Shown: one piece after another, positions 31,935-64,000 of the stretch | Layout: every line of letters starts with the position of its first letter | Position numbering within the stretch: the first letter of the stretch is position 1 | Source of the DNA: an uncultured Gammaproteobacteria bacterium | Lineage (GTDB): Bacteria; Patescibacteriota; Microgenomatia; 2-02-FULL-39-11 | Assembly (NCBI GenBank): GCA_964520615.1 | Contig: CAZFNL010000137.1 | Coordinates: forward strand, 7,140-71,139 | Length of the DNA stretch: 64,000 bases | Direction of reading: 5' to 3' | Made by a program: the position numbers and the translations under genes | The notes under the pieces: generated by a model | The model's database searches: none | What the model saw: only the letters and a program-made list of their open reading frames with translations | What the model was told of the DNA's origin: nothing

Positions 31935-33890
31935 TTAGAGCTGAAAAGTGACTGTTTTATCAGTCAGAAGAAAAAACTGATCAATTTGTTTCCCATTATA
32001 ATAAATAGTATATTGCGGATTGTCGGTTCCAGGCTGCTTTTGTATCAATAGTTTATACACATCGCCTTTCTTTACCTTAAATGGAAGGTTATATTTGACT
32101 ACCACCTGAGCTGCACCTTCTGGCTTGACCGTCATAAATCCTTCAAAAACAGTCTTGCCCAACTCATCATAGGTTGAAGTGGTTTTTTCTGATCCCACAA
32201 AAGAAGTTAACTTTGAACCGGAAGGCACATAGAATCTCAACCAATTACGCAAGATTCCGTTAAGACAGAGTTGTCCTGCTTCCAAATTACAGTTGCTGGG
32301 AGGTGAAGGGTTTTTATAATTTATAGTTACTGTTTCAGCTACACTTCCATCATCTGTTACATTTATCTCCTGTTTCACCGAAAACTTTACGAACAAATTT
32401 GATTTGGCTCCTGCAAAATTCACATTACTGATGTGTAAATAATCACCATCAAACGGCACTATTCTACCGGCAAAATTTAGGGCTTCGATACCTTTTTGCG
32501 CCTCTTGGTTATGGAAATAAAATAAAACATGCTTTTGTTGCGCTTCAGTTAAAAACATTTCTATAAGTTGTCCCCAGTATTTGGAGGGTGAAACGCCTAA
32601 AGCTCTCTGCATTATCTGGTACAGTAATACTCCAATTATATCTTTCCTCTCCGTATTGAAAGTAGCCAAAGGCTTGGCTGAATAGTCTTCAAGCTCATAT
32701 ATAGCTTTAGGACAATCACACCTAGGATCATTCTGCGCACTAAATTGACGGCCTGCAATATTGAAATCTCCCAATATTTTTATCGCATCAACCAATACAT
32801 GCGTATCTACAGCCACGATACCATCAAATGGAGGTAAATCAGGTACCGAATCCTTCAACATACTTTCAAGTTTCTGCATGGACACAACATAATCTGGAGA
32901 TAGATTGCTATCTCGCAACTCAAGAGTGTTGACCTTAATATGATATTTCAGTATAGGCGGAGGCGCTGGAAATGTCTTAGTTTTTGCTGCATCAAGTTTA
33001 TATATATCATCAGCTTTTATGACTTGCATCTTACCTTTATCTACCTTAAAAAGGGCATAACCTGTAATGAATCCTCCTGTAGCACGAAGTTCAGCATCGT
33101 TTTGGAAAAGAACCATATAGGTTTTGGGGTCTTTATTGCCTAAAAGCGTGGGGAGTTCCTTCAAGAATGGTTGAGCGTCAACAAAGAGCTTGGCTGTTGC
33201 GGAAAAAAGATTCTTTGCCGCTACAATTCGGCCTCTTATCGGTAATGACCCTAATTGTTCCGGATAACGGTTTGGGTCGATCTGATCAAGTTCATTCCCG
33301 GTGATATTAATTTTGGCGGCAATATCCGATAGTTTAGGCGTCACTTTATCCAAAGTCTCCACAGCAAGTTTTATCCTATCGTCAGCACTCCCTTCTACAA
33401 AAGATGATTTACCCTTCAATCCCAAAAGATCAGCGTATGGAACAAGCGTTGTGACTGTAATCTGTGCTGCCTGAACCCCTGCAATTCCTCCTGTAACCAT
33501 ATGTTGGAAATCTTTTTCATATGATCCTAAAAAAGGAACGTAACTAACCCATGCGACTTTACCCAATTGGCTATTTACGTTTTCTAAGTTGGACTCCAAT
33601 TCAGTAAGTTTCACTTGAGACGAAGCTATATCCTTGCTTTTTATTGCGAAATAAGCTTCTTTAGCAGAATTGGCGGATTTCTGTACAGCAAAGTAGAGAT
33701 TTCTTCCCGGAATAATGAGTGCTGCCAGAAAAATTACTATTAGTATAAGAAATACTGCTAGGACTGTACCTATTATCTTTAATGTCTTTTTCTCTCCGGC
33801 AGAATTTCGACGTTTTGAAACTATTTCTTTTCTTGATGGTGTTTTTCCAAAAGTTACTTGTTTGAATCCATCCATATTACTAAACAGCAC
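31935..33890 (-). CDS. Large membrane-anchored extracytoplasmic protein of unknown function (possibly DUF4012-like). First gene of the glycosylation cluster.
   Basis: A single N-terminal TM segment (IIGTVLAVFLILIVIFLAALII) followed by a ~590-aa soluble region. Overlaps the priming sugar-transferase gene by 11 nt. Confidence 0.4.
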   Translation of the reverse strand: MLFSNMDGFKQVTFGKTPSRKEIVSKRRNSAGEKKTLKIIGTVLAVFLILIVIFLAALIIPGRNLYFAVQKSANSAKEAYFAIKSKDIASSQVKLTELESNLENVNSQLGKVAWVSYVPFLGSYEKDFQHMVTGGIAGVQAAQITVTTLVPYADLLGLKGKSSFVEGSADDRIKLAVETLDKVTPKLSDIAAKINITGNELDQIDPNRYPEQLGSLPIRGRIVAAKNLFSATAKLFVDAQPFLKELPTLLGNKDPKTYMVLFQNDAELRATGGFITGYALFKVDKGKMQVIKADDIYKLDAAKTKTFPAPPPILKYHIKVNTLELRDSNLSPDYVVSMQKLESMLKDSVPDLPPFDGIVAVDTHVLVDAIKILGDFNIAGRQFSAQNDPRCDCPKAIYELEDYSAKPLATFNTERKDIIGVLLYQIMQRALGVSPSKYWGQLIEMFLTEAQQKHVLFYFHNQEAQKGIEALNFAGRIVPFDGDYLHISNVNFAGAKSNLFVKFSVKQEINVTDDGSVAETVTINYKNPSPPSNCNLEAGQLCLNGILRNWLRFYVPSGSKLTSFVGSEKTTSTYDELGKTVFEGFMTVKPEGAAQVVVKYNLPFKVKKGDVYKLLIQKQPGTDNPQYTIYYNGKQIDQFFLLTDKTVTFQL

Positions 33891-34566
33891 CTTTGCCTGT
33901 AATCATTGCAAAAGGAGTTTTTAAGAGAATTTTTACATCATACCATAAAGAGCGATGATTTACATAATCCGCATCCATGGCTATTCTTTTATCAAAATTA
34001 ACCTCTGATCGCCCGGATACTTGCCAATAACCTGTAATACCGGGTCTTATTGACAATACTTTTTTAACTAGATCTCTTGTTTTGGGATATTTTTTTTGCT
34101 GGTTTACTAGTTCATCAGGATAATAAGCCCTAGGCCCCACTAAACTCATATCTCCACAAAGCACATTAAGAAGCTGAGGAATTTCATCCAGAGAATGTTT
34201 TCTTATCATTTTTCCTAAAGAGGTGACACGAGGATCTTCTTTCAATTTATAACTGTTTTTTTTATATTGTTCATAAAGCAATCTCAATTTTGGATCCTTT
34301 CGTAACATCTGGTGAGCATTGACTACCATGGAACGAAATTTATACATCTTAAATAATTTTCCCTGCCTACCTACCCTCTCGGGAGTATCGGCAAATACAG
34401 GTCCCTCCGAATCCATCTTGATTGCGAAAGCCAAAATTAGACATATTGGCGAAAATAAAACAAGCAGTACTAAAGAGCCAACGATATCAATAAATCTTTT
34501 GAGGGTATTATCGTATAAATCGTATCTGAATATATTCATAAACCGACTTTCCCGAACTAACTTCAA
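33880..34566 (-). CDS. Polyprenyl-phosphate sugar phosphotransferase (bacterial sugar transferase family, PglC/WbaP C-domain type). Priming enzyme.
   Basis: KRFIDIVGSLVLLVLFSP ... FKMYKFRSM ... DEIPQLLNVLCGDMSLVGPR ... ITGYWQVSGRS signature. Confidence 0.85.
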   Translation of the reverse strand: MKLVRESRFMNIFRYDLYDNTLKRFIDIVGSLVLLVLFSPICLILAFAIKMDSEGPVFADTPERVGRQGKLFKMYKFRSMVVNAHQMLRKDPKLRLLYEQYKKNSYKLKEDPRVTSLGKMIRKHSLDEIPQLLNVLCGDMSLVGPRAYYPDELVNQQKKYPKTRDLVKKVLSIRPGITGYWQVSGRSEVNFDKRIAMDADYVNHRSLWYDVKILLKTPFAMITGKGAV

Positions 34567-34620
34567 TACTCAGCCTAAACGGTTTTAAACATTTATTCGT
34601 TCACAGCTTGTAATATCTTT

Positions 34621-35703
34621 TCAAATCAGGTGTTCATTTTCAGATTTAGCAAGACTCTCTACCAGTTTTTTAATTTTCGGAACTGAATTTTTATGACAAA
34701 TGAGTACTACATCATTAGTATTTATAACCAAATAACCATTAAGATCAATAGTCACTACCATCTGATTGGTATAATTATATATAAGACTATCATGACAATC
34801 AGTTACTAATACTTTTCCCTGAATAACATTTTGCTCAGGGGATGACTGCAAAGCCTCTTTAAGCGCCTCCCAAGCACCGATATCACTCCAACCAAGATTC
34901 TCACATACCACTAAAGCGTCACTTTCGGATATATTCTCCAATATCGCATTGTCGAATGAAATCTTACTAAGTAAACCATAATTTTCTCTTAACACAGTCT
35001 GAAAACTCTTTGTCCCATAAGCTTTATAAACTTTCTCCAAAATCTTAAACATTTCGGGTTGAAACTTCTTATATAGTTCCCATAAAAATGAAGACGTAGT
35101 CACAAAGTAACCTACGTTCCATGAATAACTGCCATCTTTATAAAATTTTTCCGCTTTTTTGAGTTCAGGTCGATAATGGAATTTCTCGAAAGAATAAAAA
35201 TCAACACCCTCAAAAGTGCGCTTCTTCTCTCCGTATTTTATCCAACCCAGATTTTGACTGGCAAATCGGGGTTTCTGTCCTATAAAAATAATCTTATTTT
35301 TTTGTTTTCTGACTATCTCGGCGCATGTTTTTATAATTTTTTTGAAAAAATCCTCTTGACGCACGATATGATCGCTCCAAAGTATCACAATCGGTTCCTC
35401 GGGAAAATTTCTTAGCAAACTTAAAGTCATAAGTCCCACCGCTGGACCAACATCCCTGGTTTCAGGTTCTAGGATTAAATTTTCTTTTGGAATATTTGGT
35501 AATTGTGAAATTACTATATGTTCATATCTATCAGAGGTTGCAATATAAATATCTTCCCAATTCAAATCGGGTAAAAGTCTTTCAGCAGCAAGCTGAAGAG
35601 TCGACTTATCCCCTATAACTTTCTCGAATTGTTTAGGAGAACTGCGTCTTGACAATGGCCAAAGCCGTGTTCCTACTCCACCTGCAAATACGATAGCTTT
35701 CAT
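34621..35703 (-). CDS. manC: Mannose-1-phosphate guanylyltransferase (GDP-mannose pyrophosphorylase).
   Basis: MKAIVFAGGVGTRLWPLSRRSSPKQF nucleotidyltransferase motif, ~360 aa. Confidence 0.8.
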   Translation of the reverse strand: MKAIVFAGGVGTRLWPLSRRSSPKQFEKVIGDKSTLQLAAERLLPDLNWEDIYIATSDRYEHIVISQLPNIPKENLILEPETRDVGPAVGLMTLSLLRNFPEEPIVILWSDHIVRQEDFFKKIIKTCAEIVRKQKNKIIFIGQKPRFASQNLGWIKYGEKKRTFEGVDFYSFEKFHYRPELKKAEKFYKDGSYSWNVGYFVTTSSFLWELYKKFQPEMFKILEKVYKAYGTKSFQTVLRENYGLLSKISFDNAILENISESDALVVCENLGWSDIGAWEALKEALQSSPEQNVIQGKVLVTDCHDSLIYNYTNQMVVTIDLNGYLVINTNDVVLICHKNSVPKIKKLVESLAKSENEHLI

Positions 35704-35793: not shown

Positions 35794-36909
35794 CTATGAT
35801 ATTTTTTCCTTCCACCATTGGTAAACCTTCTTTTTTATATTTTCCTTAAAAAAAGATTGAGAAAAACGTAAGGCATTTTCTCGACAGTAAGATGGTAAGT
35901 ATTTTTTTTGTGAAAATCTCGATAAGGCCGAAATCAAACTGCGTTCGTCTCTATGATCATATAGCTCTCCCGTCTGTCCGGATATAACTGTTTCTGCCAG
36001 TCCTCCCGCATTTAAGCCAACCACGGGTTTTCCACAGGCTTGTGCTTCAACTGATGTTAAACCAAAATCCTCCTCCCCGGGAAATATAAGAGCTATGCTT
36101 TTCTGATAATAGCAACAAAGTTTCTCATCTGTCAAATTACTGGAAATAAAATCAATATTCTTACCTGCTATATTTTTCAGTCTTTTTTCATCTATTCCGT
36201 CACCGATAATCTTCAGTTTCCAACCAAGATGATTAAATACCCTTATCGCGTAATCAATTCCCTTATAGGGAACAAGCCTTGAAACTATCAGAAAATAATC
36301 GCCTTTACCAGTTATTTTCTTTTCCATTCTAAATATATCAGTTTTTACCGGCGGAAAAATGATTTCGGATTCTTTTCCATAATATTTCTTTATTCTAACA
36401 GCTACAGCCTTTGATATGGCTATATATTTATCCGGTCTTTGAGATGAAATATAATCCCATCGGCGAAATGACGGTGAAGTAACCTTCATTACAATCCTTG
36501 CAACAGGATTTAAAACACCCATCCCAGGCTCTTTCAGATATTCATCATAACCACTCCAAAGATATCTAGTTGGTGTAAGACAATAGCATATATGTAAAGT
36601 CTGTGGTTTGGTAATTATGCTTTTGGCATCAGCTGAGGAGATCGAAATTACCACGTCAAATTTATCAAAGTCAAAAGACTCAAACGTATATGCAGTTAAA
36701 ACAGGAAACAGTTCATGTTTGGTGGAAGAAAAAGGTAGACTATCCAAAAATGAAGTCTTCACTTCAAATGCATCCGCCCATTTTGCTTTTTTCTTATCAT
36801 AAACTGCAGTATAAAGCGGTGCATTAGGCCAAATCTGGTGAAGTGAAAGTAAAACTCTTTCAGCTCCGCCGAATTTATTCACCTTATCATAAACTAATGC
36901 AATTTTCAT
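35794..36909 (-). CDS. Glycosyltransferase family 4 (GT-B).
   Basis: C-terminal FPGEEDFGLTSVEAQACGKPVVGLNAGG...GQTGELY motif. Confidence 0.8.
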   Translation of the reverse strand: MKIALVYDKVNKFGGAERVLLSLHQIWPNAPLYTAVYDKKKAKWADAFEVKTSFLDSLPFSSTKHELFPVLTAYTFESFDFDKFDVVISISSADAKSIITKPQTLHICYCLTPTRYLWSGYDEYLKEPGMGVLNPVARIVMKVTSPSFRRWDYISSQRPDKYIAISKAVAVRIKKYYGKESEIIFPPVKTDIFRMEKKITGKGDYFLIVSRLVPYKGIDYAIRVFNHLGWKLKIIGDGIDEKRLKNIAGKNIDFISSNLTDEKLCCYYQKSIALIFPGEEDFGLTSVEAQACGKPVVGLNAGGLAETVISGQTGELYDHRDERSLISALSRFSQKKYLPSYCRENALRFSQSFFKENIKKKVYQWWKEKIS

Positions 36910-38033
36910 CAGACTTTGCCATTAAAAACATTTTCATAAAGTTCTAGTGTCTGGAAAGCAGTCTTTTTCCAGCTGTACTTTGAAAGTCTTCTTGAAGCTT
37001 TAGTTACAATTCCTCTATAAAGTTTAGAATTCATATCTAATACCCCTAAAATCCTGTCTGCAATTGCCTCGAAATTATAGGGATCAAAAAAAGGCAAATC
37101 TTTATCCCAGATTTCACGAAACACAGGTATATCTGAAATAACAGGTATCTTTCCGCAGGAAAGCGCCTCAAGCGTAGGCAAACCAAATCCTTCCATCAGT
37201 GACGGAAACACCAAACATGAGGAAAAGGTGTAAAGATTGATAAGTTGCTTATCGTTAGCCTCGCCAAAAAAAACCACGTCATTGCCTATCCCATGCTTCT
37301 GAGCGATATCTTTTAACCTTGGATAGAAGTATTTATCATCTCCTGCCAATACTAATTTATAATCTGGCTTATTTCTTTTTATTTTTTTAAAGGCAAGAAG
37401 TGTGCGCTCCAAATTCTTATGTGGATAAGCGTTACCAACATAAAGCACATATTGAAAAGTATAATATTTTTCCGGATGGTAATTTCTCAAAGTATTGGCA
37501 AAACTTCTATCCAAGGCATCGTAAGTGACGTGTATACGTTTTGGAGGAACCCTATAATGATCGATGATTTCTTGTTTCGTGGTCTTGGAAATCGCGACAA
37601 TCGTCTCTGCTCTTTTTATTCCCCTTGCTATGGAAAATCTATATCCTAAACGCTTTGCTTTATATAAAACCGTAGGCAATGTGCTGGCTCTCCCGGTATC
37701 GAAATGATCAACAATTAAATCATGTATAGTCAATATGTATTTTTTTGGGTATAAAACAGGAACATTAAAATAAGTAAAATGAGCGGCGTCAAGTCTGTCT
37801 GCCAAGAGTATTCTGGGCATGACATATTGTTCTTTTACTGTATGCCACGGGATATCAGCTAATCTTTTGTGCCAACGTATGTTAGGAGGAGAAAACTCGT
37901 TAAATTCTTTTCTTAGCAAATATACAAAATAGTCATTCTTAATATCAATTTGAGATAACTCCTCAATAAGATTTCGTATATATCTTCCTACTCCGGTTTG
38001 ATGATAAAGCCGTGCATCAATTCCTATGCGCAT
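36909..38033 (-). CDS. Glycosyltransferase family 4 (GT-B).
   Basis: FPSLMEGFGLPTLEALSCGKIPVIS motif. Start overlaps the previous stop by 1 nt. Confidence 0.8.
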   Translation of the reverse strand: MRIGIDARLYHQTGVGRYIRNLIEELSQIDIKNDYFVYLLRKEFNEFSPPNIRWHKRLADIPWHTVKEQYVMPRILLADRLDAAHFTYFNVPVLYPKKYILTIHDLIVDHFDTGRASTLPTVLYKAKRLGYRFSIARGIKRAETIVAISKTTKQEIIDHYRVPPKRIHVTYDALDRSFANTLRNYHPEKYYTFQYVLYVGNAYPHKNLERTLLAFKKIKRNKPDYKLVLAGDDKYFYPRLKDIAQKHGIGNDVVFFGEANDKQLINLYTFSSCLVFPSLMEGFGLPTLEALSCGKIPVISDIPVFREIWDKDLPFFDPYNFEAIADRILGVLDMNSKLYRGIVTKASRRLSKYSWKKTAFQTLELYENVFNGKV

Positions 38034-51489: not shown

Positions 51490-52301
51490 AACTTTCTCTT
51501 GACCTTCTTTAGGGGTGTCACAAATCCTGCCTGAATTTCAAAATCTATAGCTCTTTTTCCTAAAACATCGGGCACGATTTGAGGATGGTCTTGAAAAAAG
51601 ACATCGGGAATGCTTTCTTTACTTGGAATTTTATTACCCGTTTCTATTTTATATTTACGCCGGTGAAATGTTTCTTTCAGGTTCTTTCCCAAAGAAGATC
51701 TAGAAAGATACATCGCATGAAAAAGATGTTTTCTGGTAAACATGTACTTTGTTTCTTCATGATGGGTTAATTCTACGCCGAAATTATCGTAATAACCCTC
51801 ATATGGATAAGTACCCTCTATATGTAATCCATCTATATTTCTTCTATTTATTAGACGCAAGGCAAAATGACCTCGTCTGCCAAAAAGATTATATTGTCCC
51901 GCCGATTCATCCTGAAAATGATAGATATCTCCCAAAAGGTCATATCGACCCACCGCAATCCCTTCTAATTTCGAGCCATAACTCTCAATAATTTCTATTA
52001 TCTCCTGACAGAGTTCATCCGTATAAATCTCATCACCATCCACCACCCAAATCCATTCTGTTTTGGTTTTCTCAATCTGTTCCTGTCTTATCTTCCCTAT
52101 ATATTTAGGATCATTTACAACTTTTGATTCAAACTTTATCCTCTTATCCCTGAAAGAATTTATGATATCTATTGTCTTATCCTGGGAACCGGTATCACAG
52201 ATTAATATTCTTTCTGCAAGATGAAGTACTGAAGAAAGTGCATACCAGATAAACCTGTCTTCATTTTTCACCACCATATGAATAGTAATATCCGGATTCA
52301 T
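51471..52301 (-). CDS. Glycosyltransferase family 2 (GT-A).
   Basis: ITIHMVVKNEDRFIWYALSSV ... ICDTGSQDKT ... VVDGDE. Confidence 0.7.
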   Translation of the reverse strand: MNPDITIHMVVKNEDRFIWYALSSVLHLAERILICDTGSQDKTIDIINSFRDKRIKFESKVVNDPKYIGKIRQEQIEKTKTEWIWVVDGDEIYTDELCQEIIEIIESYGSKLEGIAVGRYDLLGDIYHFQDESAGQYNLFGRRGHFALRLINRRNIDGLHIEGTYPYEGYYDNFGVELTHHEETKYMFTRKHLFHAMYLSRSSLGKNLKETFHRRKYKIETGNKIPSKESIPDVFFQDHPQIVPDVLGKRAIDFEIQAGFVTPLKKVKRKLWSINA

Positions 52302-58011: not shown

Positions 58012-60346
58012 ACATATCCCAGTAAATATCGTTTCGGGAACTGATTACTTTTTTCGAATATTCATTATTTCCCAATATATCAAATATTTTTGTCTTATCC
58101 CTCAATTTATCAAATCTTTTTACAGATGTACCATAAGTACTAATTAACACAAATTTGATGCGGTTTTTTTTATAAAAACTGTAAATATCCGAAAAATTTG
58201 ATGATTCGAAAACTGGATAAAAAAGCGATAATCCTCCCCCATATTCCACGTTATAAGTCTGCAAACCGGAATAATAAGAAAGTCCGCTAGGTGTACCAAA
58301 TACAACAATTCTATCTCCTAAGTGAGAATGACTTGCCAAATATGGTACCACTGTTGTACTTTGCCCCCAATAGTCAAACAACATATTTTGTTCCCTTTTA
58401 GTAAAGTTCAGTAGATTTATACCCCCTGATACGGCAATGAATATATAACCATATAATATTAAAATCGCTGCAGGAACTATTTTTTTCAAATAAAGTCTAT
58501 CAGACATAGCACCAATAACTACAACCGTAATCGACAGAAGAAAGGCTAAAATTATCATGAGGGGTATATCGCTTGGTGAAATTGATACGCGTGAGGCTAA
58601 AATATATAATGATCTAAGAACAACTTCTAATATGTCGTTTGGGATTTTAATTAAATCTGAAAAATGAGATTTCACCTCAGGAACCAATGCTTCACCGATT
58701 TGAAAATTAACGCCGTATTTTTGCACGGAATACCTTAATGTATTGTTTCCAATAGAATATGACCAGAAATTCCACAAAAGAAATTTGGATGAAAGAAAGT
58801 GAAAAAATACTCCTGCATATACTATATTTTCCACCATTTTTCTCCTGACAGACAATTTTTTTAGACCGTCTAATATCAACACTGCCAGAAAAGGAATTAC
58901 AGGTAGAAGCCACTTGGTATCAGCAGCACCTAAAAAAAGCACCCACCAGCTGTACCAGACAAAAAAAATATATACTGGGAGAAATTTAATTCCTCGGGAA
59001 AATCCTTTTAACACTCCTGTAATCTTCGGCAATAACCAAAAGACTGCTAGAGAAGAACCGAATATAAACGTAAGCGTCTCAAATGGAATACCTCCTTTTC
59101 CCACAACACCAATTGAACTGCCAATACTGGAAGCCCAATTATAACTTAATTTTTGTGAGGTAAAATTTCCAAAAAATAAATAATTTCGCAAAATAAAAAT
59201 AAACCCGGAAAGTGAAATCATCGCGGAAGCAACTAACTTGTAAAAATCTTTTTTATCGCTGTATATATTTATCCTCACTGACCAGAAAGCCATAAACAGC
59301 AAAACGGCAAAAAATATTCCAAAGGCAAAGCCCTGCGGTACAGTGTAAGGTTCTCCCTTAAAAAATATTTTGAGAAGAAATGGAACAAAAGGAACAGATA
59401 AATACAGAATTTTCCCCTTCCCTCTAAAGTATCTGAAGACGCCTAACCCAAAAACCAAGGCATAGAGGAATATCGCCTGGTATTTGATAAGAAGAGATGC
59501 TCCAAGAGATAAACCCAATAGTGCATATATTATCCATGAATATTTTTTCCTATGAGAAGAAATTAATTTCAACATAAACCAGAAACAGAACAAAGATAAA
59601 AAGGCAAAAATAAAATCGGGATAGAAACCGGCTTCAAATATAAATCCTTCCAGAAAAGGAATGACCAGTATAATTAGGACCCCTAAAAGTGAATATTCAC
59701 TAGGAAAGAAAAGGCTGAATATATAGTAGCTGAATAATAAAATACCTAGAAAGTAGGGAATATTGATAAATCTAAAAACTTCACCAAATATATTCCCTGA
59801 AATTGTATAGTAATAGGCAAAAAACGACGGTCCCCCCACGGGAGGAATTGCAAAAGGACTACCGTCATAATAGTTATATGCCGGAATTTTATCTGCCATG
59901 ACAATTGACCTTGCCAAAGGCAGGTAGCTATCGACAACATCGCTGTCAACTACCGGCCTGAGCGTAAAAATGAGGAGGAAAACCAATATAAAAATACCTA
60001 GAAAAAGGTATGTAACTTTGTTTCCCGAAAGTATTTTCGTCTTATTGTCACAGGTTTTAATACCTTTGCTAATCACGGAAAATAATAAATCCTTAAGCGT
60101 CACAATAGTTAATAAAACCAAAATGGCAAATAGAATCCTGGAGGTTACGATAAATCCTCTTGGAAAAACAATTCCCCAAAAACTTGAGAAAAGAACTGTA
60201 AAAGATGTGGTTGCAACAAGTGATAAACATAGTTTTAACAGAACTGAATATCTCTTTAATCTGGCAACACGGTTTAACACAGGATAAGCACCAAATATAA
60301 ATGACAAGGGAATAATAAACATGAGAATACTTTCCATATCTTTCAT
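57998..60346 (-). CDS. Large (782 aa) polytopic membrane protein, GT-C-like putative glycosyltransferase.
   Basis: More than 14 TM segments. An acidic first-loop motif (RPVVDSDVVDSYLPLARSIV) resembles the GT-C DxD/DExD loop. Confidence 0.45.
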   Translation of the reverse strand: MKDMESILMFIIPLSFIFGAYPVLNRVARLKRYSVLLKLCLSLVATTSFTVLFSSFWGIVFPRGFIVTSRILFAILVLLTIVTLKDLLFSVISKGIKTCDNKTKILSGNKVTYLFLGIFILVFLLIFTLRPVVDSDVVDSYLPLARSIVMADKIPAYNYYDGSPFAIPPVGGPSFFAYYYTISGNIFGEVFRFINIPYFLGILLFSYYIFSLFFPSEYSLLGVLIILVIPFLEGFIFEAGFYPDFIFAFLSLFCFWFMLKLISSHRKKYSWIIYALLGLSLGASLLIKYQAIFLYALVFGLGVFRYFRGKGKILYLSVPFVPFLLKIFFKGEPYTVPQGFAFGIFFAVLLFMAFWSVRINIYSDKKDFYKLVASAMISLSGFIFILRNYLFFGNFTSQKLSYNWASSIGSSIGVVGKGGIPFETLTFIFGSSLAVFWLLPKITGVLKGFSRGIKFLPVYIFFVWYSWWVLFLGAADTKWLLPVIPFLAVLILDGLKKLSVRRKMVENIVYAGVFFHFLSSKFLLWNFWSYSIGNNTLRYSVQKYGVNFQIGEALVPEVKSHFSDLIKIPNDILEVVLRSLYILASRVSISPSDIPLMIILAFLLSITVVVIGAMSDRLYLKKIVPAAILILYGYIFIAVSGGINLLNFTKREQNMLFDYWGQSTTVVPYLASHSHLGDRIVVFGTPSGLSYYSGLQTYNVEYGGGLSLFYPVFESSNFSDIYSFYKKNRIKFVLISTYGTSVKRFDKLRDKTKIFDILGNNEYSKKVISSRNDIYWDMYEII

Positions 60347-60361: not shown

Positions 60362-61318
60362 TTAACTTTGACTTAATCTTATTGAAATGCCGGAAAAATA
60401 AGTTATGTAACCCAAACACCAAACGATTGGACCCAGTCTTTCAACAATCCACCCACGAAATGTAAAGGAGTAAACAGGCGGTAAAACTATTTTTACCAGA
60501 CTTAGTATCAGAAACCCTATCGATTTGAGTAGATGGCTAAGTTTATATATTAGCTTTTTCCTGCCATATCTTGCACAGTGTGCCTGACCCGACGCAAAAT
60601 ACCGTTTCAGTCTGTATGATACCCTAGTTTTACTCGGAGGAACTAAATGATAAACTCTAAGACTAGGACTATAATAAAAAATTTCCCCAGATTCTTCCTT
60701 TTCCCAAACTCTTTCAAAAAAACCTGTTTCTTCTCCAACTGATAGTATTTTTCCTTTCATGCCGACTGCTTCCTCAAATCCCCCGAATCGGAGCAAGGTT
60801 GACCGGCAAACAAACATATTTGAACCGGAAAAAGATTCACCTTTGTGCAAATATCTGGATTTGTTTCCCTTAAAATCTGCCTCATAAAGGTCTGAAAACC
60901 ATTTGGGTTTTTGTCCGGAATAAAAAGGTATAATTGGACCACCGATAACCAGAGGATCGGGTTTAATCGAACCAAAGATTTTCAAAGCTGATTCTAACCA
61001 ATTCAAATCGGCTTTTGCGTCATCATCAAGAAAAGTGACAAATTTTCCTTTTGCACTTAAAAGTCCTGTATTTCGTGCTATTCCCAGCCCCAGTCTTTTT
61101 TCCTTAACCAAGTTGATAATATGATTCTTATATCGTCTCTGAAACGACCAGACAACATCACTAGTATTATCTGTTGACCCGTTATTTACCACTATAATTT
61201 CGTAATTTTTCTTTTCCAGTGTCTGGCAGACCAGACTTTCCAATGCCTGTGATAGCAATTCTGACCTGTTATAAGTACATATAATTACGGATAAAAGCAG
61301 GTTGGAATTTCGCTTCAT
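60362..61318 (-). CDS. Glycosyltransferase family 2 (GT-A).
   Basis: LLLSVIICTYNRSELLSQALESLVCQT ... EIIVVNNGSTDNTS ... LDDD. Confidence 0.8.
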   Translation of the reverse strand: MKRNSNLLLSVIICTYNRSELLSQALESLVCQTLEKKNYEIIVVNNGSTDNTSDVVWSFQRRYKNHIINLVKEKRLGLGIARNTGLLSAKGKFVTFLDDDAKADLNWLESALKIFGSIKPDPLVIGGPIIPFYSGQKPKWFSDLYEADFKGNKSRYLHKGESFSGSNMFVCRSTLLRFGGFEEAVGMKGKILSVGEETGFFERVWEKEESGEIFYYSPSLRVYHLVPPSKTRVSYRLKRYFASGQAHCARYGRKKLIYKLSHLLKSIGFLILSLVKIVLPPVYSFTFRGWIVERLGPIVWCLGYITYFSGISIRLSQS

Positions 61319-61362: not shown

Positions 61363-62304
61363 CTATATTTTGAATTTATGCCTCACGGCAACAGATAAAC
61401 GCGTTAGGATCTCCTCTTCATTGGGAATTGTAACAAACTCCTTATTCTGCTTTAAGTTTTTATTTTTCTCCTCCCAATTTTTTATCTGATTAGCCATAAA
61501 AGGAAAAAACTGGTATTTCTCAAGAACTAGATTTCGAGCTTTTACAATTGCCTCACTGCTCTTTTGCCAAAGATTGCTTTGACTAACTTGGTCAATCTTT
61601 TTAGCTACATTTTTGTCGTTTATGTCAATCTGTACGAAAGAATTTTTTGGAAAGTAGTCCGATAAATTGGTACAACCGTAATATATGGGCATTGTGTAGG
61701 AGAGAAAACAATCGGCAATTTTTTCCGTCCAATAATCAGGACAGGAAAAATTCTCGATTGCCAGAGAATATTTGTATGGATAAAGACCATCCCATTTATC
61801 TTTTATTGGTAGAAAGCCAAAACCAAATAAGTCAAAATCCACTTTGTCTTTTATTTTATGAAGAAACATTAGTCTCTTTTTATGCCCTGAAAAATTATTT
61901 TTATTTGAAGTGATAAAAGAAAGTACTTTTGATTTAGATATTGATTTAATTTTTACCAACTCGTCGTATGTTTTTCCGATATGCCAGGGTAACGCCGGTT
62001 GTGTATGTATAAACCTTTCCTCTTTCAAGGAGCTATCCGTAGTAAAAACTCTGTAATAGATTTTATCGGCATTATGCCTCCTGTGGAAATACTCATTAGG
62101 CGGTTCTTGCTGAAGTGACCAAACATTTTCTTTAGAACAAGACACATTGTAATTCTGCCTGGCAAAATTGGAAACAATTACATAATCACATTCTGAAACA
62201 GGCTTGGTAGTAAACTGAACCCCATCCCAAATTCCCTTTCCTTTGGGTGATTGCCTGAAGATATCAGGATAATCCCAATTCTTTATTATTCTTACTAAAA
62301 TCAT
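61363..62304 (-). CDS. GT10-like alpha-1,3-fucosyltransferase-family glycosyltransferase.
   Basis: YKYSLAIENFSCPDYWTEKIADCFLSYTMPIYYG matches the GT10 FucT motif FxLxFENSxxxxYxTEK. Confidence 0.5.
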   Translation of the reverse strand: MILVRIIKNWDYPDIFRQSPKGKGIWDGVQFTTKPVSECDYVIVSNFARQNYNVSCSKENVWSLQQEPPNEYFHRRHNADKIYYRVFTTDSSLKEERFIHTQPALPWHIGKTYDELVKIKSISKSKVLSFITSNKNNFSGHKKRLMFLHKIKDKVDFDLFGFGFLPIKDKWDGLYPYKYSLAIENFSCPDYWTEKIADCFLSYTMPIYYGCTNLSDYFPKNSFVQIDINDKNVAKKIDQVSQSNLWQKSSEAIVKARNLVLEKYQFFPFMANQIKNWEEKNKNLKQNKEFVTIPNEEEILTRLSVAVRHKFKI

Positions 62305-63221
62305 TTTTTCCTTAACAATACCAATACTCCACCCTGAGGGTTGTACATTCTCTTACCTTCTTCTACATCAGTATAATATCCCTTAATTGTTTTACTCACC
62401 TTCTTACCTTCAATATCCTTCTGACTGCAAAAGCGGCCAAGCAGAGAATATTTTATTTCAACGGGAGTAAACCCTTTAATAAGTCTGACAAATCTTCCGG
62501 CATCATAAACTCTATGAAGATTATAAACGACCGTAGGATAACCATAAGGTATAGTTAGGATAAGATATCCTCCTTTTTTTAGTATCCTTTTTGCCTCTTT
62601 CATGGCTTTTATATCGCCATCTGGATCAAGAGGATCTCCGTAGCGACCCAAACCGACATGTTCTAATGTCGAAATTAATGAAACTACATCCATGGATTTA
62701 TCAGACAATTTCGTATCCATACAATCACCCACTATGTAATAAACACTATTTTTTGATTTTCGGGGAAAGTCCGAAACATCCAGGGAGTATACGTTAGTAT
62801 GTGCTTTTACCAAAAGCATTATGGTAATAGTTGAAAAACTGAATCCTCCGCCCATATCGATAATCTTCCTTCTCTCAATACCAATCCTGCTTAGGCAATC
62901 TGCCAGAAAAGAATATTCAAGTTTCCTAAGATGGTCGCTAATAAATCTTTTCTCAAGGTATTTTCCCACAGTAATGTGATTAATCTCTCCCCACCTGTTT
63001 GATATTTCATTCCGGATTTTTTCTAATTCACTATCATTGGGATTTCCGATATATTTCAAATATAAACGGCGCAAAAAATCATATAAAAAATTCTGGCGAA
63101 AATAATTCGAAAATCCGCCTACTTCATTCGTACACTGCATATATAATTCAGCATCACTGAAGCTACTAAAATCTTTTATAAAATCCTTCGGTTTGAAAGT
63201 GATATTTATTTTGTTCTTCAC
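62301..63221 (-). CDS. SAM-dependent methyltransferase (class I, DUF268/FkbM-like).
   Basis: IIDMGGGFSFSTI (motif I-like) ... YSLDVSD ... MDVVSLISTLEHV ... GGYLILTIPYG. Confidence 0.6.
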   Translation of the reverse strand: MKNKINITFKPKDFIKDFSSFSDAELYMQCTNEVGGFSNYFRQNFLYDFLRRLYLKYIGNPNDSELEKIRNEISNRWGEINHITVGKYLEKRFISDHLRKLEYSFLADCLSRIGIERRKIIDMGGGFSFSTITIMLLVKAHTNVYSLDVSDFPRKSKNSVYYIVGDCMDTKLSDKSMDVVSLISTLEHVGLGRYGDPLDPDGDIKAMKEAKRILKKGGYLILTIPYGYPTVVYNLHRVYDAGRFVRLIKGFTPVEIKYSLLGRFCSQKDIEGKKVSKTIKGYYTDVEEGKRMYNPQGGVLVLLRKK

Positions 63222-63237
63222 GTCATCAGGTTAATAT

Positions 63238-64000
63238 TTATATAAAATATTTTGTCATCTCATATGCCGTAATATCTACTAGCCGTGATTTCCTAAATAA
63301 ACAGGATAAACCTAATAAAATTTGTTTAGCAATTACCCACCGAGTATTTCGGGAAAGCTTAGACAACATATATCGATCAAAAACCTGCATTCCGTTATAA
63401 GAATTTCCCAAACATGTCTTGAACCAATAGCCTTTCAGCAATCTCTCAAAAAAAAGTGCGTCGTATCTTTTAACCTTCCTGTTAGAGTAAAAAATTCTCA
63501 AAAGCCACTTTTCCACCTTTCCGATTTCAGCTGTGGATAAATTTTGCCGCCCCGGTTCAAGCAGTCTATGTATTTCTATCTCCTCTGGTAAAGCATAAAT
63601 ATCCAGTTTTTTTAAATTCTCCTTCATTATCTTATCAGTACAATCATCTATCTCTTTTCTTATACCCTTGGACATGTTTTGGGAATGTTTCCTGTAATAA
63701 GTCAAGACAATAGGAATATTTGCTATCTTAAATTTATCGGCTAACCTGACCCATAGATCATAGTCCGGTGCAGGCCAATAATCGGAACGAAAATGTTCAT
63801 CTTTTAAGCAATCTTTTCTCAGAAGAACCGACGACTGAGTAATACAATTCCTAAACAAGAGTATTGCCTTTATCAATTCGGGAGACCCGGCATGACGCCA
63901 AATCTGCCCGGTCTTTTTTCCTGCGTTATCAATAATTTCTACCCATGACCCGGCTATATACACATCCTTATGACTATCAAGAAAAGATACCTGCGTTCCC
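63238..64000 (-). CDS. Glycosyltransferase family 2, 5'-truncated by the window edge. The ORF is open to nt 64000.
   Basis: The upstream in-frame translation GNAGIFLDSHKDVYIAGSW (GT-A DxD region) continues to the edge. PDYDLWVRL lies downstream. Confidence 0.6.
   Translation of the reverse strand, partial: GTQVSFLDSHKDVYIAGSWVEIIDNAGKKTGQIWRHAGSPELIKAILLFRNCITQSSVLLRKDCLKDEHFRSDYWPAPDYDLWVRLADKFKIANIPIVLTYYRKHSQNMSKGIRKEIDDCTDKIMKENLKKLDIYALPEEIEIHRLLEPGRQNLSTAEIGKVEKWLLRIFYSNRKVKRYDALFFERLLKGYWFKTCLGNSYNGMQVFDRYMLSKLSRNTRWVIAKQILLGLSCLFRKSRLVDITAYEMTKYFI

What the first reader, a model, noticed from the sequence alone, without database searches (positions are those of the whole stretch)
31935..64000. 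32-kb co-directional glycosylation supercluster with five GT-C-type membrane glycosyltransferase domains
Twenty-six tightly packed minus-strand genes, many with overlapping start and stop codons. They encode a priming PglC/WbaP-type transferase, ManC, nine GT4, six GT2, a GT10 FucT-like enzyme, a DegT aminotransferase, an acetyltransferase, two methyltransferases and a Wzx flippase. Unusually, there are also four separate GT-C-like polytopic proteins and a Wzy_C-GT-C fusion. GT-C enzymes use polyprenyl-phosphate-linked sugars on the outer face of the membrane, and Wzy_C domains also occur in protein O-oligosaccharyltransferases (PglL/PilO). Together these suggest an extracytoplasmic glycosylation system, targeting protein or a cell-surface polymer, rather than an ordinary O-antigen or capsule locus. 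That interpretation is inference.
Basis: partly seen in the sequence, partly recalled or inferred. Interest (0 to 1): 0.75.

Follow-up and report, generated by a model that had tools for sequence, protein, structure and literature searches.

The report
Conserved CPR cell-surface glycan gene cluster
This is a large sugar-polymer assembly gene cluster from an uncultivated Gottesmanbacteria (CPR) bacterium; half of it is conserved in gene order across the Microgenomates group, and it has five membrane enzymes of a fold that acts at the outer membrane face, so it probably builds a still unknown cell-surface glycan.

Summary
The observation largely holds. Window 31935-63963 carries 26 tightly packed minus-strand genes, 12 of 25 junctions overlapping. 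All five GT-C assignments check out by Pfam, profile comparison or predicted fold, including a 1051-aa Wzy_C-GT-C fusion. The counts were off: six GT4, not nine. DUF4012 was missed, and the cluster runs past the window end.

The organism is a Candidatus Gottesmanbacteria (Microgenomates, CPR). The locus has two parts:
- **Core (31935-50373):** its gene order recurs in most of 80 species-level genomes from seven Microgenomates lineages.
- **Distal half (50383-64000+):** it was found only in the closest relative, where it diverges about three times faster.

Outside Gottesmanbacteria the Wzy_C and GT-C parts are adjacent separate genes, so the fusion joins two conserved neighbours. The Wzy_C domain keeps WaaL's R215 equivalent and motif spacing, but an invariant Asp replaces the ligase His.

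My best reading is a lipid-carrier-based, PGT-primed, Wzx-flipped envelope glycan finished outside the membrane by GT-C enzymes. It most resembles the bipartite cell-wall polysaccharide loci of lactococci and streptococci. The target (wall polymer, protein or lipid) is unresolved, and no C55-P-sugar synthase could be identified. I rate it a new variant of a known kind, of moderate interest.

The parts
31935..33890 (-). DUF4012 protein (651 aa as listed, about 646 aa by comparison with the relative). One N-terminal TM segment and a large extracytoplasmic part. It is the last gene of the cluster and a conserved partner of the priming transferase.
   Evidence: Pfam DUF4012, 73.6 bits. One TM segment. 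Present after the PGT in 40 of 48 loci. The same PGT+DUF4012 pairing occurs in the Bifidobacterium longum EPS locus (PMC5412050), and the family is reported as part of the CPR family content (PMC6744442). No PDB relative by sequence.
33880..34566 (-). Small monotopic phosphoglycosyl transferase of PglC type (Bac_transf). It would prime the glycan on the polyprenyl-phosphate carrier. The true start is probably about 9 codons downstream.
   Evidence: Pfam Bac_transf, 213.5 bits. One hydrophobic segment at 31-49. 99% identical over 219 aa to the relative's protein. Present in 40 of 48 loci.
34621..35703 (-). ManC-type mannose-1-phosphate guanylyltransferase, which supplies GDP-mannose.
   Evidence: Pfam NTP_transferase plus ManC_GMP_beta-helix. 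Present in 36 of 48 loci.
35794..36909 (-). GT4 glycosyltransferase 'GT4a' (core).
   Evidence: Pfam Glycos_transf_1. Present in 43 of 48 loci.
36909..38033 (-). GT4 glycosyltransferase 'GT4b' (core).
   Evidence: Pfam Glycos_transf_1 plus Glyco_transf_4. Present in 47 of 48 loci.
38053..38958 (-). GT2 glycosyltransferase 'GT2a' (core).
   Evidence: Pfam Glycos_transf_2. Present in 46 of 48 loci.
39050..40237 (-). GT4 glycosyltransferase 'GT4c' (core), immediately downstream of the fusion.
   Evidence: Pfam Glyco_trans_1_4. Present in 47 of 48 loci.
40304..43459 (-). Wzy_C-GT-C fusion, 1051 aa and about 20 TM segments. The N-terminal half has a WaaL-like fold, with R239 aligned to E. coli WaaL R215 and the motif D428-N-x9-G-x2-G in place of H338-N-x9-G-x2-G. 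A K/R-rich linker spans about 520-548. The C-terminal half has an ArnT-like GT-C fold with an invariant ADWHSWRQADT loop (574-584), followed by a soluble domain of about 100 aa.
   Evidence: Pfam Wzy_C 56.6 bits and PMT_2 28 bits. More than 1183 homologues. At least 578 species genomes. AF2 pLDDT 78.5. Foldseek hits ArnT at E 5e-8 with TMt 0.61 and WaaL 7tpg at TMt 0.61. Invariant residues. Motif check. Two adjacent genes in non-Gottesman Microgenomates.
43431..44345 (-). GT2 'GT2b' with a C-terminal TM segment. It overlaps the fusion's start and is a candidate partner of that protein.
   Evidence: Pfam Glycos_transf_2. TM segment at 268-286. Upstream of Wzy_C in 36 of 47 loci. Not specifically similar to ArnC, GtrB or DPMS.
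44379..44981 (-). Hexapeptide-repeat acetyltransferase (core).
   Evidence: Pfam Hexapep. Present in 46 of 47 loci.
44989..46152 (-). GT4 'GT4d' (core).
   Evidence: Pfam Glycos_transf_1, 129.8 bits. Present in 46 of 47 loci.
46156..47292 (-). GT4 'GT4e' (core).
   Evidence: Pfam Glycos_transf_1. Present in 45 of 47 loci.
47276..48040 (-). Methyltransf_11 methyltransferase (core, facultative).
   Evidence: Pfam. Present in 29 of 47 loci.
48101..49516 (-). GT-C 'PMTa' (471 aa, PMT_2) with an LDEA motif in the first loop (core).
   Evidence: Pfam PMT_2, 43.9 bits. At least 8 TM segments and a DE motif at residue 38. Present in 45 of 47 loci.
49513..50373 (-). GT2 'GT2c' with a C-terminal TM segment, overlapping PMTa by 4 nt. 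It is the best, though unproven, candidate for a polyprenyl-phosphate sugar synthase.
   Evidence: Pfam Glycos_transf_2, 105.9 bits. TM segment at 248-266. PDB hits include DPMS 5mlz (39 bits) and ArnC (35 bits), but ordinary GT2 enzymes score higher. Present in 32 of 47 loci.
50383..51489 (-). GT4 'GT4f', at the boundary between the core and the variable part.
   Evidence: Pfam. Present in 23 of 47 loci. 75% identical to the closest relative's protein.
51471..52301 (-). GT2 'GT2d' (variable part).
   Evidence: Pfam Glycos_transf_2. 70% identical to the closest relative's protein.
52298..53608 (-). Wzx-type flippase (Polysacc_synt).
   Evidence: Pfam, 83.6 bits. About 10 TM segments. Its position differs between genomes.
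53605..54834 (-). DegT/DnrJ/EryC1 sugar aminotransferase (variable part) with a 30-aa in-frame insertion.
   Evidence: Pfam, 405.6 bits. Insertion at residues 168-197 relative to the closest relative's protein.
54834..56417 (-). GT-C 'PMTb' (527 aa, PMT_2) (variable part).
   Evidence: Pfam PMT_2, 36.5 bits. About 10 TM segments.
56398..58011 (-). DUF2142 polytopic protein (537 aa) with a PDEQAH motif in the first loop. This domain family includes lactococcal WpsI/WpsJ (variable part).
   Evidence: Pfam DUF2142, 78.2 bits over 392 of 395 profile positions. 12 TM segments. PMC12599335 and PMC9746298 describe DUF2142 proteins in CWPS loci. The direct profile link to the other GT-C proteins here is weak.
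57998..60346 (-). Divergent GT-C (782 aa, about 15 TM segments plus a C-terminal globular domain). D134 is nearly invariant and D136 invariant in the loop after TM4. It belongs to a rare family (variable part).
   Evidence: No Pfam or NCBIfam hit. 71 relatives among 1.84 billion representatives. Homologues hit PMT_2. hhalign 97.5%. AF2 pLDDT 88.8 and pTM 0.92. Foldseek hits STT3 and ArnT.
60362..61318 (-). GT2 'GT2e' with a C-terminal hydrophobic segment, 15 nt upstream of the 782-aa GT-C.
   Evidence: Pfam. TM segment at 264-282. PDB and NCBIfam hits are generic GT2.
61363..62304 (-). GT10 (fucosyltransferase-like) glycosyltransferase.
   Evidence: Pfam Glyco_transf_10, 49 bits against a cut-off of 23.9.
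62301..63221 (-). DUF268/Methyltransf_11 methyltransferase.
   Evidence: Pfam.
63238..64000 (-). 3' part of a 355-aa GT2 gene cut by the window end. The cluster continues beyond it.
   Evidence: No Pfam hit on the 241-aa fragment. The full gene is in the identical contig L004 882-1949 with a Glycos_transf_2 hit. A GT11 lies upstream of it.

Best explanation
The locus encodes the assembly line for a cell-envelope heteroglycan of a monoderm-like CPR bacterium. It is built on a polyprenyl-phosphate carrier and finished outside the membrane.

Shown:
- The gene families, the synteny and the predicted folds.

Inferred:
- The small PglC-type transferase primes the carrier.
- Cytoplasmic GT4 and GT2 enzymes extend the glycan, using GDP-mannose from ManC among other donors.
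- The acetyltransferase and methyltransferases modify it.
- Wzx flips it to the outer face.
- There, the WaaL-like Wzy_C domain polymerises or transfers the carrier-linked glycan. Its physically coupled ArnT-like GT-C domain and the conserved PMTa add sugars or attach the chain to its acceptor.
- DUF4012 acts as an extracytoplasmic accessory, perhaps in chain-length control or acceptor handling.

The locus is bipartite. The 17-gene-family core (31935-50373) makes a backbone shared across the sampled Microgenomates. The distal module (50383 to beyond 64000) makes or attaches a strain-variable, probably fucosylated and methylated decoration. It holds three more GT-C enzymes, DegT, GT10, GT11 and methyltransferases. 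This parallels the conserved rhamnan plus variable side-chain design of lactococcal and streptococcal cell-wall polysaccharide loci.
For: -
- GT-C folds of the fusion and the 782-aa protein.
- Acidic first-loop motifs and K/R-rich N-termini.
- The core gene order is conserved in 80 species-level loci from Gottesman-, Curtiss-, Woese-, Roizman-, Beckwith-, Pace- and Chisholmbacteria. The most conserved core genes are present in 43-47 of 47-48 informative loci.
- Wzy_C and GT-C are always adjacent, and are fused only in the Gottesman-type loci.
- Core proteins are 88-99% identical to the closest relative, distal proteins 68-91% (mostly 68-86%).
- The distal genes are absent from the neighbourhoods of the other species.
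- Each of three GT-C genes is directly preceded by a GT2 with a C-terminal TM segment. The same adjacency holds for the CsdA/B-type pairs listed in PMC8035078.
- DUF2142 proteins are the WpsI/WpsJ-type enzymes of bipartite CWPS loci (PMC12599335, PMC9746298).
- PGT+DUF4012 pairing occurs in a Bifidobacterium EPS locus (PMC5412050).
- The locus lies next to the complete peptidoglycan/division cluster.
Against: - No product, acceptor or donor is known, and everything about chemistry is inference.
- No GT2 is specifically similar to C55-P-sugar synthases such as ArnC, GtrB or DPMS. No GtrA-type flippase fits in the cluster.
- No LCP ligase catalytic domain, ABC exporter, Wzz/PCP or rhamnose genes were seen in the window.
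- The Wzy_C domain has Asp where WaaL has its essential His, so it could be neither a classical ligase nor a polymerase.
- The operon structure is untested. Promoter and terminator scans were at chance level.
- TM topology comes from a crude hydropathy script, not a dedicated predictor.
Confidence: 0.55

Rival explanations
1. This is a general protein O-glycosylation system for S-layer protein, pilins or other envelope proteins. The Und-PP-linked oligosaccharide built by the GT4/GT2 set is flipped by Wzx. The Wzy_C domain then transfers it en bloc to Ser/Thr of secreted proteins, acting as a PglL/PilO/WsaB-type O-oligosaccharyltransferase. The GT-C enzymes, which are PMT-like, add further sugars to proteins or glycans.
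For: - Only one Wzy_C domain is present, with no separate polymerase or Wzz.
- Its motif spacing and the R215 equivalent are ligase-like rather than typical of Wzy.
- PMT_2-type GT-C enzymes do glycosylate proteins in streptococci (PMC12041528).
- The 782-aa GT-C matches STT3, AglB and PglB about as well as ArnT.
- That CPR cells carry abundant pili and S-layers is my background knowledge, not tested here.
Against: - The His that I recall as essential in PglL and WaaL is an invariant Asp here.
- No GT-C carries a WWDxG OST motif.
- No pilin or S-layer gene is adjacent in the window or in the 80 loci.
- About 14 cytoplasmic GTs and a bipartite conserved/variable layout fit a polymer better.
- The DUF4012+PGT pairing is known from an EPS/CPS locus (PMC5412050).
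Confidence: 0.2
2. This is a membrane-anchored lipoglycan or glycolipid pathway resembling actinobacterial lipomannan/LAM. GDP-mannose-dependent GT4 enzymes start the chain inside the cell. After flipping, GT-C enzymes extend it outside using polyprenyl-phosphate-mannose, and the WaaL-like domain ligates it to a lipid anchor.
For: - ManC is conserved in the core, together with many GT4 genes.
- There are multiple PMT_2-type GT-C enzymes.
- GT2c has weak DPMS similarity and is coupled to PMTa.
- Fold hits include AftA, AftB, Emb and PimE.
- WaaL itself ligates glycan to a lipid acceptor.
Against: - A PGT, Wzx and Wzy_C point to an Und-PP repeat-unit route, which LM/LAM synthesis does not use.
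- No PimA, PimB or phosphatidylinositol-related genes were seen.
- The DPMS similarity is no better than that to generic GT2 enzymes.
Confidence: 0.12
3. This is an ordinary released capsule or exopolysaccharide locus. The GT-C genes are accessory decorations or serve unrelated envelope functions, and are clustered here only because of the compact, co-directional genome.
For: - PGT, Wzx, Wzy_C and GTs are the standard EPS/CPS toolkit.
- DUF4012 is known from an EPS locus (PMC5412050).
- Almost every gene in the 64-kb window is on one strand, so co-direction alone means little.
Against: - PMTa and the GT-C partner of Wzy_C keep their positions within the core across lineages at 30-50% protein identity, and one is fused to Wzy_C. 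That argues for functional coupling.
- Conservation of order across the sampled Microgenomates is unusual for strain-variable capsule loci.
- No Wzz/PCP tyrosine-kinase or Wza-type export genes are present.
Confidence: 0.1

Closest known systems
Bipartite cell-wall polysaccharide loci of Lactococcus (cwps) and Streptococcus thermophilus (rgp), the 'dual-chain assembly' systems (PMC9746298, PMC12599335)
   Same: - A conserved backbone half plus a variable side-chain half in one co-directional locus.
- A Wzx-type flippase.
- DUF2142 polytopic proteins (WpsI/WpsJ-like).
- GT-C-fold enzymes proposed to polymerise or attach chains outside the membrane.
- Many GT2 and GT4 genes.
   Different: - No rhamnose synthesis genes, RgpA-F rhamnosyltransferases or ABC exporter here.
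- Priming is by a small PglC-type PGT.
- A Wzy_C/WaaL-like domain is central and is fused to, or adjacent to, a GT-C.
- There are five GT-C domains.
- The organism is a CPR bacterium, and conservation extends across a whole candidate-phylum group.
Multi-component transmembrane glycosylation systems (GtrA/B/C, CsbB-GtcA-YfhO, CsdA-F, GacI-L; review PMC8035078)
   Same: - PMT_2-type GT-C enzymes lie next to GT2 genes that carry a C-terminal membrane segment.
- A Wzx-type flippase has a precedent in GacK.
- Decoration of envelope polymers occurs outside the membrane.
   Different: - The GT2 partners here are not recognisably C55-P-sugar synthases by sequence.
- There is no GtrA-type flippase or GacJ-like activator gene.
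- The GT-C genes are embedded in the main assembly locus rather than forming separate two- or three-gene modules.
WaaL O-antigen ligase (E. coli b3622; Cupriavidus WaaL structure 7TPG) and other Wzy_C proteins (PglL, PilO, Wzy)
   Same: - The Pfam Wzy_C hit is above its cut-off.
- The predicted fold matches 7tpg (TMt 0.61).
- R239 aligns with WaaL R215.
- The x-N-x9-G-x2-G motif has identical spacing.
   Different: - An invariant Asp (76 of 76 sequences) stands in place of WaaL His338.
- There is a long, poorly predicted Pro-rich outer loop (about 300-440).
- It has an obligatory GT-C neighbour or fusion partner.
- No sequence-level PDB or NCBIfam match was found.
ArnT and PMT/STT3-type GT-C glycosyltransferases
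   Same: - GT-C fold (ArnT 5f15: E 5e-8 for the fusion, 1e-5 for the 782-aa protein).
- Conserved Asp residues in the first outer loop.
- A polytopic N-terminal module plus a C-terminal soluble domain.
   Different: - 11-15% identity, with no family-level sequence match.
- No WWDxG motif, so these are not OSTs.
- Donors and acceptors are unknown.
Bifidobacterium longum 105-A EPS/CPS locus (PMC5412050)
   Same: A priming phosphoglycosyl transferase lies directly next to a DUF4012 protein within a polysaccharide cluster.
   Different: - The Bifidobacterium locus has a large WelE/CpsD-type PGT and a Wzz.
- No GT-C set was noted in the part of its gene table read here (not checked in full).

Membership tests
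GT-C glycosyltransferase superfamily (five domains) | Polytopic membrane module of at least 8 TM helices with the GT-C fold | tested here: met
   - 8-20 hydrophobic segments per protein.
- Pfam PMT_2 for three domains and DUF2142 for one.
- AF2 plus Foldseek hits to ArnT, STT3, PglB, Pmt4 and Aft for the fusion and the 782-aa protein.
- hhalign at 97.5% links the 782-aa family to the fusion's GT-C domain.
- The fold of DUF2142 was not modelled here. Its link rests on Pfam and on the literature (PMC12599335).
GT-C glycosyltransferase superfamily (five domains) | Conserved acidic residue(s) in the first extracytoplasmic loop | tested here: met
   - PMTa has LDEA.
- DUF2142 has PDEQAH.
- The 782-aa protein has D134-x-D136; D136 is invariant and D134 is conserved in at least 90% of 32 sequences.
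- The fusion has invariant D575 and D583.
- PMTb has a single Asp in MDQA (weaker).
- Sources.
- The outer-face location is inferred from the positive-inside rule only.
GT-C glycosyltransferase superfamily (five domains) | Use of polyprenyl-phosphate-linked sugar donors | not testable with these tools
   Biochemical property. No donor-synthesising enzyme could be identified by sequence.
Wzy_C / WaaL-type O-antigen ligase | Wzy_C domain and WaaL-like fold | tested here: met
   Pfam Wzy_C at 56.6 bits against a cut-off of 31.7. Foldseek hit to 7tpg_B with TMt 0.61, but E is only 0.048.
Wzy_C / WaaL-type O-antigen ligase | Conserved Arg equivalent to E. coli WaaL R215 | tested here: met
   hhalign aligns the invariant R239 (LTASRTSF) with R215 (LTQTRATL). 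The overall probability is low, 23.8%.
Wzy_C / WaaL-type O-antigen ligase | Catalytic His in the H-[NSQ]-x9-G-x2-[GTY] motif (E. coli H338). The motif and its essentiality are recalled from the literature. | tested here: not met
   The same spacing is present, but position 428 is Asp in 55 of 55 and 21 of 21 family members.
STT3/PglB/AglB oligosaccharyltransferases | WWDxG motif in the C-terminal domain | tested here: not met
   No WWD or WWDxG in any of the five GT-C proteins, despite fold-level hits to STT3, PglB and AglB.
Multi-component transmembrane glycosylation system (GtrB/CsbB-type GT2 + flippase + GT-C) | Membrane-linked GT2 that makes a C55-P-sugar, encoded next to the GT-C | tested here: inconclusive
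   GT2c, GT2b and GT2e each directly precede a GT-C and have a C-terminal TM segment. Their best NCBIfam and PDB matches are generic GT2 enzymes. ArnC, DPMS and GtrB score 22-39 bits over the N-terminal fold only.
Multi-component transmembrane glycosylation system (GtrB/CsbB-type GT2 + flippase + GT-C) | GtrA-type small flippase, or a Wzx-type flippase | tested here: inconclusive
   No room for a small ORF, since gaps are at most 91 nt. One Wzx is present, but which substrate it flips is unknown.
Wzx/Wzy-dependent polysaccharide pathway | Priming PGT, Wzx flippase, Wzy polymerase and Wzz/PCP co-polymerase | tested here: inconclusive
   The PGT and Wzx are present. The only Wzy-like domain looks ligase-like. 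No Wzz/PCP family was detected; DUF4012 occupies the place beside the PGT.
Lactococcal/streptococcal rhamnose-CWPS loci | Rhamnan backbone genes (rmlABCD, rgpA-F) and an ABC exporter | tested here: not met
   None among the 26 genes or the rest of the window. Only the bipartite layout and the DUF2142/GT-C elements are shared.

The most novel reading that the evidence does not exclude
The conserved Wzy_C (His-to-Asp) plus GT-C pair may be a previously undescribed two-enzyme machine. It is adjacent in all sampled Microgenomates lineages and fused in Gottesmanbacteria. It would couple transfer or polymerisation of a carrier-linked glycan directly to a second extracytoplasmic glycosyl transfer. 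On this reading, the 17-gene-family syntenic core makes a lineage-defining envelope glycoconjugate of Microgenomates. That product would be a CPR counterpart of teichoic acids or arabinogalactan, and could underlie attachment to hosts.
Probability: 0.25. Interest if true: 0.7.

Novelty: new variant of a known kind. Interest (0 to 1): 0.5.

Why it matters
CPR/Patescibacteria are a large part of bacterial diversity, and their envelope chemistry is essentially unknown because almost none are cultured.

A glycan-assembly core that keeps its gene order across the sampled Microgenomates lineages, and sits beside the peptidoglycan/division cluster, is a concrete candidate for a major envelope polymer. 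The variable distal module, with GT10/GT11 fucosyltransferase-like enzymes, methyltransferases and extra GT-C enzymes, would be the strain-specific surface layer relevant to host or phage recognition.

The Wzy_C/GT-C neighbour pair and its fusion, together with the His-to-Asp change, give a defined and expressible target. It can be used to ask how WaaL-like and GT-C enzymes cooperate.

Tried and rejected
- **Exact-sequence look-ups.** The 1060-aa GTG-start fusion and PMTa were not on record. The fusion was then recovered as a 1051-aa protein starting at the ATG.
- **PDB searches by sequence.** Searches with the fusion, the 782-aa protein, DUF4012 and profiles A2, A3 and A4 found nothing. Only fold comparison was informative.
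- **NCBIfam.** It gave no family for the fusion, DUF2142 or the 782-aa protein. For PMTa and PMTb it gave only weak, far sub-threshold hits.
- **C55-P-sugar synthase assignment.** I tried to show that GT2c, GT2b or GT2e are ArnC/GtrB/DPMS-type enzymes, without success. The similarity is limited to the generic GT2 N-terminal fold.
- **DUF2142 profile link.** Comparing DUF2142 with the 782-aa family by hhalign gave only 29.7% probability. Its GT-C status rests on Pfam and the literature.
- **OST identity.** Rejected for the 782-aa protein and the others, because no WWDxG motif is present.
- **Promoter and terminator scans.** Counts were at chance level (73 against 64.6±8.1 and 17 against 14±3.9; 74 against 65.6 and 13 against 14.1), so they say nothing about the operon structure.
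- **Horizontal transfer of the distal half.** I found no support for it. GC content is 0.34-0.39 throughout.
- **Literature searches.** Searches for the Microgenomates locus and for a Wzy_C/PMT_2 fusion returned nothing.

Full report
**1. What is in the sequence**

From 31935 to 63963 the minus strand carries 26 ORFs of at least 200 aa with almost no spacing. The largest gap is 91 nt, and 12 of 25 junctions overlap by 1-29 nt.

Pfam gives the following, in transcription order:
- a GT2 fragment (63238-63963)
- a DUF268/Methyltransf_11 methyltransferase
- GT10
- GT2
- a 782-aa polytopic protein with no hit
- DUF2142 (537 aa)
- PMT_2 (527 aa)
- DegT
- Wzx (Polysacc_synt)
- GT2
- GT4
- GT2
- PMT_2 (471 aa)
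- Methyltransf_11
- GT4
- GT4
- a hexapeptide acetyltransferase
- GT2
- a Wzy_C+PMT_2 protein
- GT4
- GT2
- GT4
- GT4
- ManC
- a small Bac_transf
- DUF4012

So there are six GT4 genes, not nine. There are five complete GT2 genes plus one cut by the window edge.

The edge ORF is the C-terminal 241 aa of a 355-aa GT2. In a contig with identical sequence, a GT11 lies just upstream of it. In the closest relative the cluster continues with further GT and methyltransferase genes. The 32 kb is therefore a lower bound.

The fusion most likely starts at the ATG at 43459. That gives 1051 aa, identical to a database protein.

GC content is even, 0.34-0.39. Promoter and terminator scans are at chance level.

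**2. Are the membrane proteins GT-C enzymes?**

Yes. Three carry PMT_2 above Pfam's cut-off and one carries DUF2142.

The 782-aa protein belongs to a rare family, with 71 relatives among 1.84 billion representatives.
- Ten of 32 homologues hit PMT_2.
- Its profile aligns to the fusion's GT-C domain family with 97.5% probability, E 5e-12.
- A confident AF2 model (pLDDT 88.8, pTM 0.92) matches STT3, ArnT (TMt 0.61), AglB, PglB and Emb.

The fusion model (pLDDT 78.5) matches ArnT (E 5e-8, TMt 0.61), other GT-C enzymes, and WaaL 7tpg (TMt 0.61, E 0.048).

Each GT-C has a conserved acidic motif in the first loop after a K/R-rich N-terminus:
- LDEA in PMTa
- PDEQAH in DUF2142
- D134-x-D136 in the 782-aa protein
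- ADWHSWRQADT in the fusion
- a single Asp in PMTb

None has the WWDxG motif of oligosaccharyltransferases.

**3. Whose genome it is, and how general the locus is**

Homologues of the fusion are annotated as Candidatus Gottesmanbacteria, Microgenomates or Patescibacteria. The best genome match is a 355-kb MAG contig at 96% identity. The lineage is the Patescibacteria group, Microgenomates group.

A pattern scan of one genome per species found at least 578 encoded relatives. The 80 best loci come from Gottesman-, Curtiss-, Woese-, Roizman-, Beckwith-, Pace- and Chisholmbacteria.

I labelled the ORFs of those loci by best BLASTP hit to the window's proteins. This shows a conserved gene order:

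GT2c - PMTa - (MT) - GT4e - GT4d - AcT - GT2b - Wzy_C/GT-C - GT4c - GT2a - GT4b - GT4a - ManC - PGT - DUF4012 - RecO - GlyRS

Among 48 loci with at least 9 kb downstream of the fusion:

| Gene | Loci with it |
|---|---|
| GT4c | 47 |
| GT4b | 47 |
| GT2a | 46 |
| GT4a | 43 |
| PGT | 40 |
| DUF4012 | 40 |
| ManC | 36 |

Among 47 loci with at least 8.5 kb upstream:

| Gene | Loci with it |
|---|---|
| AcT | 46 |
| GT4d | 46 |
| PMTa | 45 |
| GT4e | 45 |
| GT2b | 36 |
| GT2c | 32 |

The window's distal genes (the 782-aa GT-C, DUF2142, DegT, GT10, DUF268-MT) were seen only in the closest relative. Against that relative, core proteins are 88-99% identical (92-95% at nucleotide level). Distal proteins are 68-91% identical, mostly 68-86% (77-84% at nucleotide level). 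The position of Wzx varies between genomes.

The locus is therefore bipartite: a core conserved across the sampled Microgenomates (31935-50373) and a fast-evolving distal module (50383 to beyond 64000).

**4. The fusion is a lineage-specific joining of two conserved neighbours**

In Gottesman-type loci there is a single ORF of about 1030-1060 aa. In the other lineages there are two adjacent ORFs in the same order:
- a Wzy_C protein of about 520 aa, aligned to residues 1-522
- a GT-C protein of about 475 aa, aligned to residues 548-1045

Constant adjacency plus occasional fusion argues that the two act together.

The linker is K/R-rich. If it is cytoplasmic, both catalytic loops fall outside the membrane (inference).

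**5. What kind of Wzy_C domain it is**

A profile of the Wzy_C half aligns its invariant R239 with R215 of E. coli WaaL, although the overall probability is low.

E. coli WaaL has H338-N-x9-G-x2-G. The fusion has D428-N-x9-G-x2-G with identical spacing. Position 428 is Asp in all 76 family members examined.

That R215 and H338 are essential in WaaL, and the motif definition itself, are from my memory of the literature, not from a tool.

The domain thus looks ligase-like, but one defining residue of WaaL/PglL-type enzymes is not met. Its chemistry may differ; for example the Asp could serve as a base or a metal ligand. That is speculation.

**6. How it most likely works**

Shown: the families, folds, synteny and motif conservation. 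Inferred: everything about chemistry.

The PglC-type PGT would prime a polyprenyl phosphate. GT4 and GT2 enzymes would extend the glycan, with ManC supplying GDP-mannose. The acetyl- and methyltransferases would modify it, and Wzx would flip it. Outside the membrane, the Wzy_C domain would transfer or polymerise it, while the coupled GT-C domain and PMTa add sugars or attach the chain. DUF4012 would act as an accessory.

Each of three GT-C genes is directly preceded by a GT2 with a C-terminal TM segment. The same adjacency is seen in the CsdA/CsdB-type pairs of multi-component transmembrane glycosylation systems (PMC8035078). However, none of these GT2 enzymes is specifically similar to ArnC, GtrB or DPMS. 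The donor supply is therefore not established. GT-C enzymes could also use Und-PP-linked oligosaccharides as donors.

The distal module adds three more GT-C enzymes, DegT, GT10 and GT11 (fucosyltransferase-like), and methyltransferases. That suggests a variable, decorated outer portion.

**7. Comparison with known systems**

The closest design is the bipartite cell-wall polysaccharide locus of lactococci and S. thermophilus. Those loci have a conserved backbone half, a variable side-chain half, a Wzx, DUF2142 proteins (WpsI/WpsJ) and GT-C-fold attachment enzymes (PMC9746298, PMC12599335).

The window differs from them in several ways:
- It has no rhamnan genes or ABC exporter.
- It has a small PGT.
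- It has a WaaL-like domain tied to a GT-C.
- It has five GT-C domains.

PGT+DUF4012 pairing is known from a Bifidobacterium EPS locus (PMC5412050), and DUF4012 was noted among CPR protein families (PMC6744442). I found no paper describing this Microgenomates locus or a Wzy_C/PMT_2 fusion. The searched library is incomplete, so absence of a hit is weak evidence.

**8. Rivals**

- **Protein O-glycosylation (about 0.2).** The ligase-like Wzy_C and the lack of a separate polymerase or Wzz favour it. The His-to-Asp change, the absence of adjacent target genes and the polymer-like bipartite layout count against it.
- **Lipomannan-like lipoglycan (about 0.12).** ManC, the GT4 genes and the GT-C enzymes fit it. 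The PGT/Wzx/Wzy_C logic does not.
- **Plain EPS locus with unrelated GT-C genes (about 0.1).** It is hard to reconcile with the conserved positions and the fusion.

**9. Verdict**

What is new is the conserved syntenic core across the sampled Microgenomates, the obligatory Wzy_C/GT-C pair with its fusion in Gottesmanbacteria, and the Asp variant of the ligase motif. I rate it a new variant of a known kind, with interest of about 0.5.

Noticed in passing
window 1651-26456 (minus strand): An unusually complete, co-directional peptidoglycan/division cluster lies just downstream of the glycan locus. It holds MraZ, MraW, FtsI-type PBP, several Mur ligases, a Cu-oxidase_4 protein, MurB, MurA, GlmU, GlmS, an alpha/beta hydrolase, a second DegT-family aminotransferase (10124-11401), FemAB, a DAGK-family kinase, MraY, FtsW, MurG, FtsQ-like, FtsA and FtsZ. 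Nearly every gene in the 64-kb window is on the minus strand.
   Followed up: partly
window 26761-28434 (minus strand): A 557-aa protein combines an N-terminal PilM_2-like (actin-like ATPase) region with a C-terminal LytR_C domain. It lies between the division cluster and the glycan locus. No LCP catalytic domain was seen anywhere in the window.
   Followed up: no
window 53605-54834, residues 168-197 of the DegT protein: The DegT protein has a 30-aa in-frame insertion relative to the orthologue in the closest relative (409 against 379 aa). It sits in an already unusual K/R-rich segment of the aminotransferase. The effect on function is unknown.
   Followed up: partly
window 31116-31143 (minus strand): A perfect 12-of-12 sigma-70 consensus (TTGACA, 16 nt, TATAAT) lies in the 245-nt gap upstream of the glycyl-tRNA synthetase gene. 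It is the only perfect match in the scanned 30-64 kb.
   Followed up: no
L004 1-885 and L087 5209-6042 (just beyond window base 64000): A GT11 (alpha-1,2-fucosyltransferase family) gene sits two genes upstream of the GT10 gene, separated by the GT2 cut by the window end and the DUF268 methyltransferase. The cluster therefore carries both fucosyltransferase-like families, a combination that I recall from Lewis-antigen synthesis in Helicobacter. No GDP-fucose synthesis genes (gmd/fcl) were seen in the window.
   Followed up: partly
window 40000-44000, 48000-50000 and 52000-60000: AT skew on the plus strand turns positive (+0.07 to +0.18) exactly over the polytopic membrane genes and is negative elsewhere. 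This probably reflects T-rich Phe/Leu/Ile codons on the coding (minus) strand, giving a compositional footprint of membrane proteins.
   Followed up: no
loci L014, L016, L017, L020, L022, L023 and others; L054: Many public MAG records that carry this Microgenomates-type locus are titled 'uncultured Gammaproteobacteria' or 'Pseudomonadales' (TPA assemblies). One 3.3-kb contig is binned as Omnitrophota. Gene content and synteny indicate CPR origin, so these titles or bins look wrong.
   Followed up: no
window 1043-1504 (minus strand): A 153-aa ORF matches only the C-terminal half of a GT4 (Glycos_transf_1) domain. It lies downstream of ftsZ and may be a truncated or remnant glycosyltransferase gene.
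   Followed up: no
L001 1-3185 (Gottesmanbacteria contig JACPKY010000002): In another Gottesmanbacteria genome, the variable region upstream of the conserved core carries different polytopic families (DUF2079 and DUF6798) in place of the window's DUF2142, 782-aa protein and PMTb. This suggests that the outer-face enzymes are exchanged between lineages.
   Followed up: no
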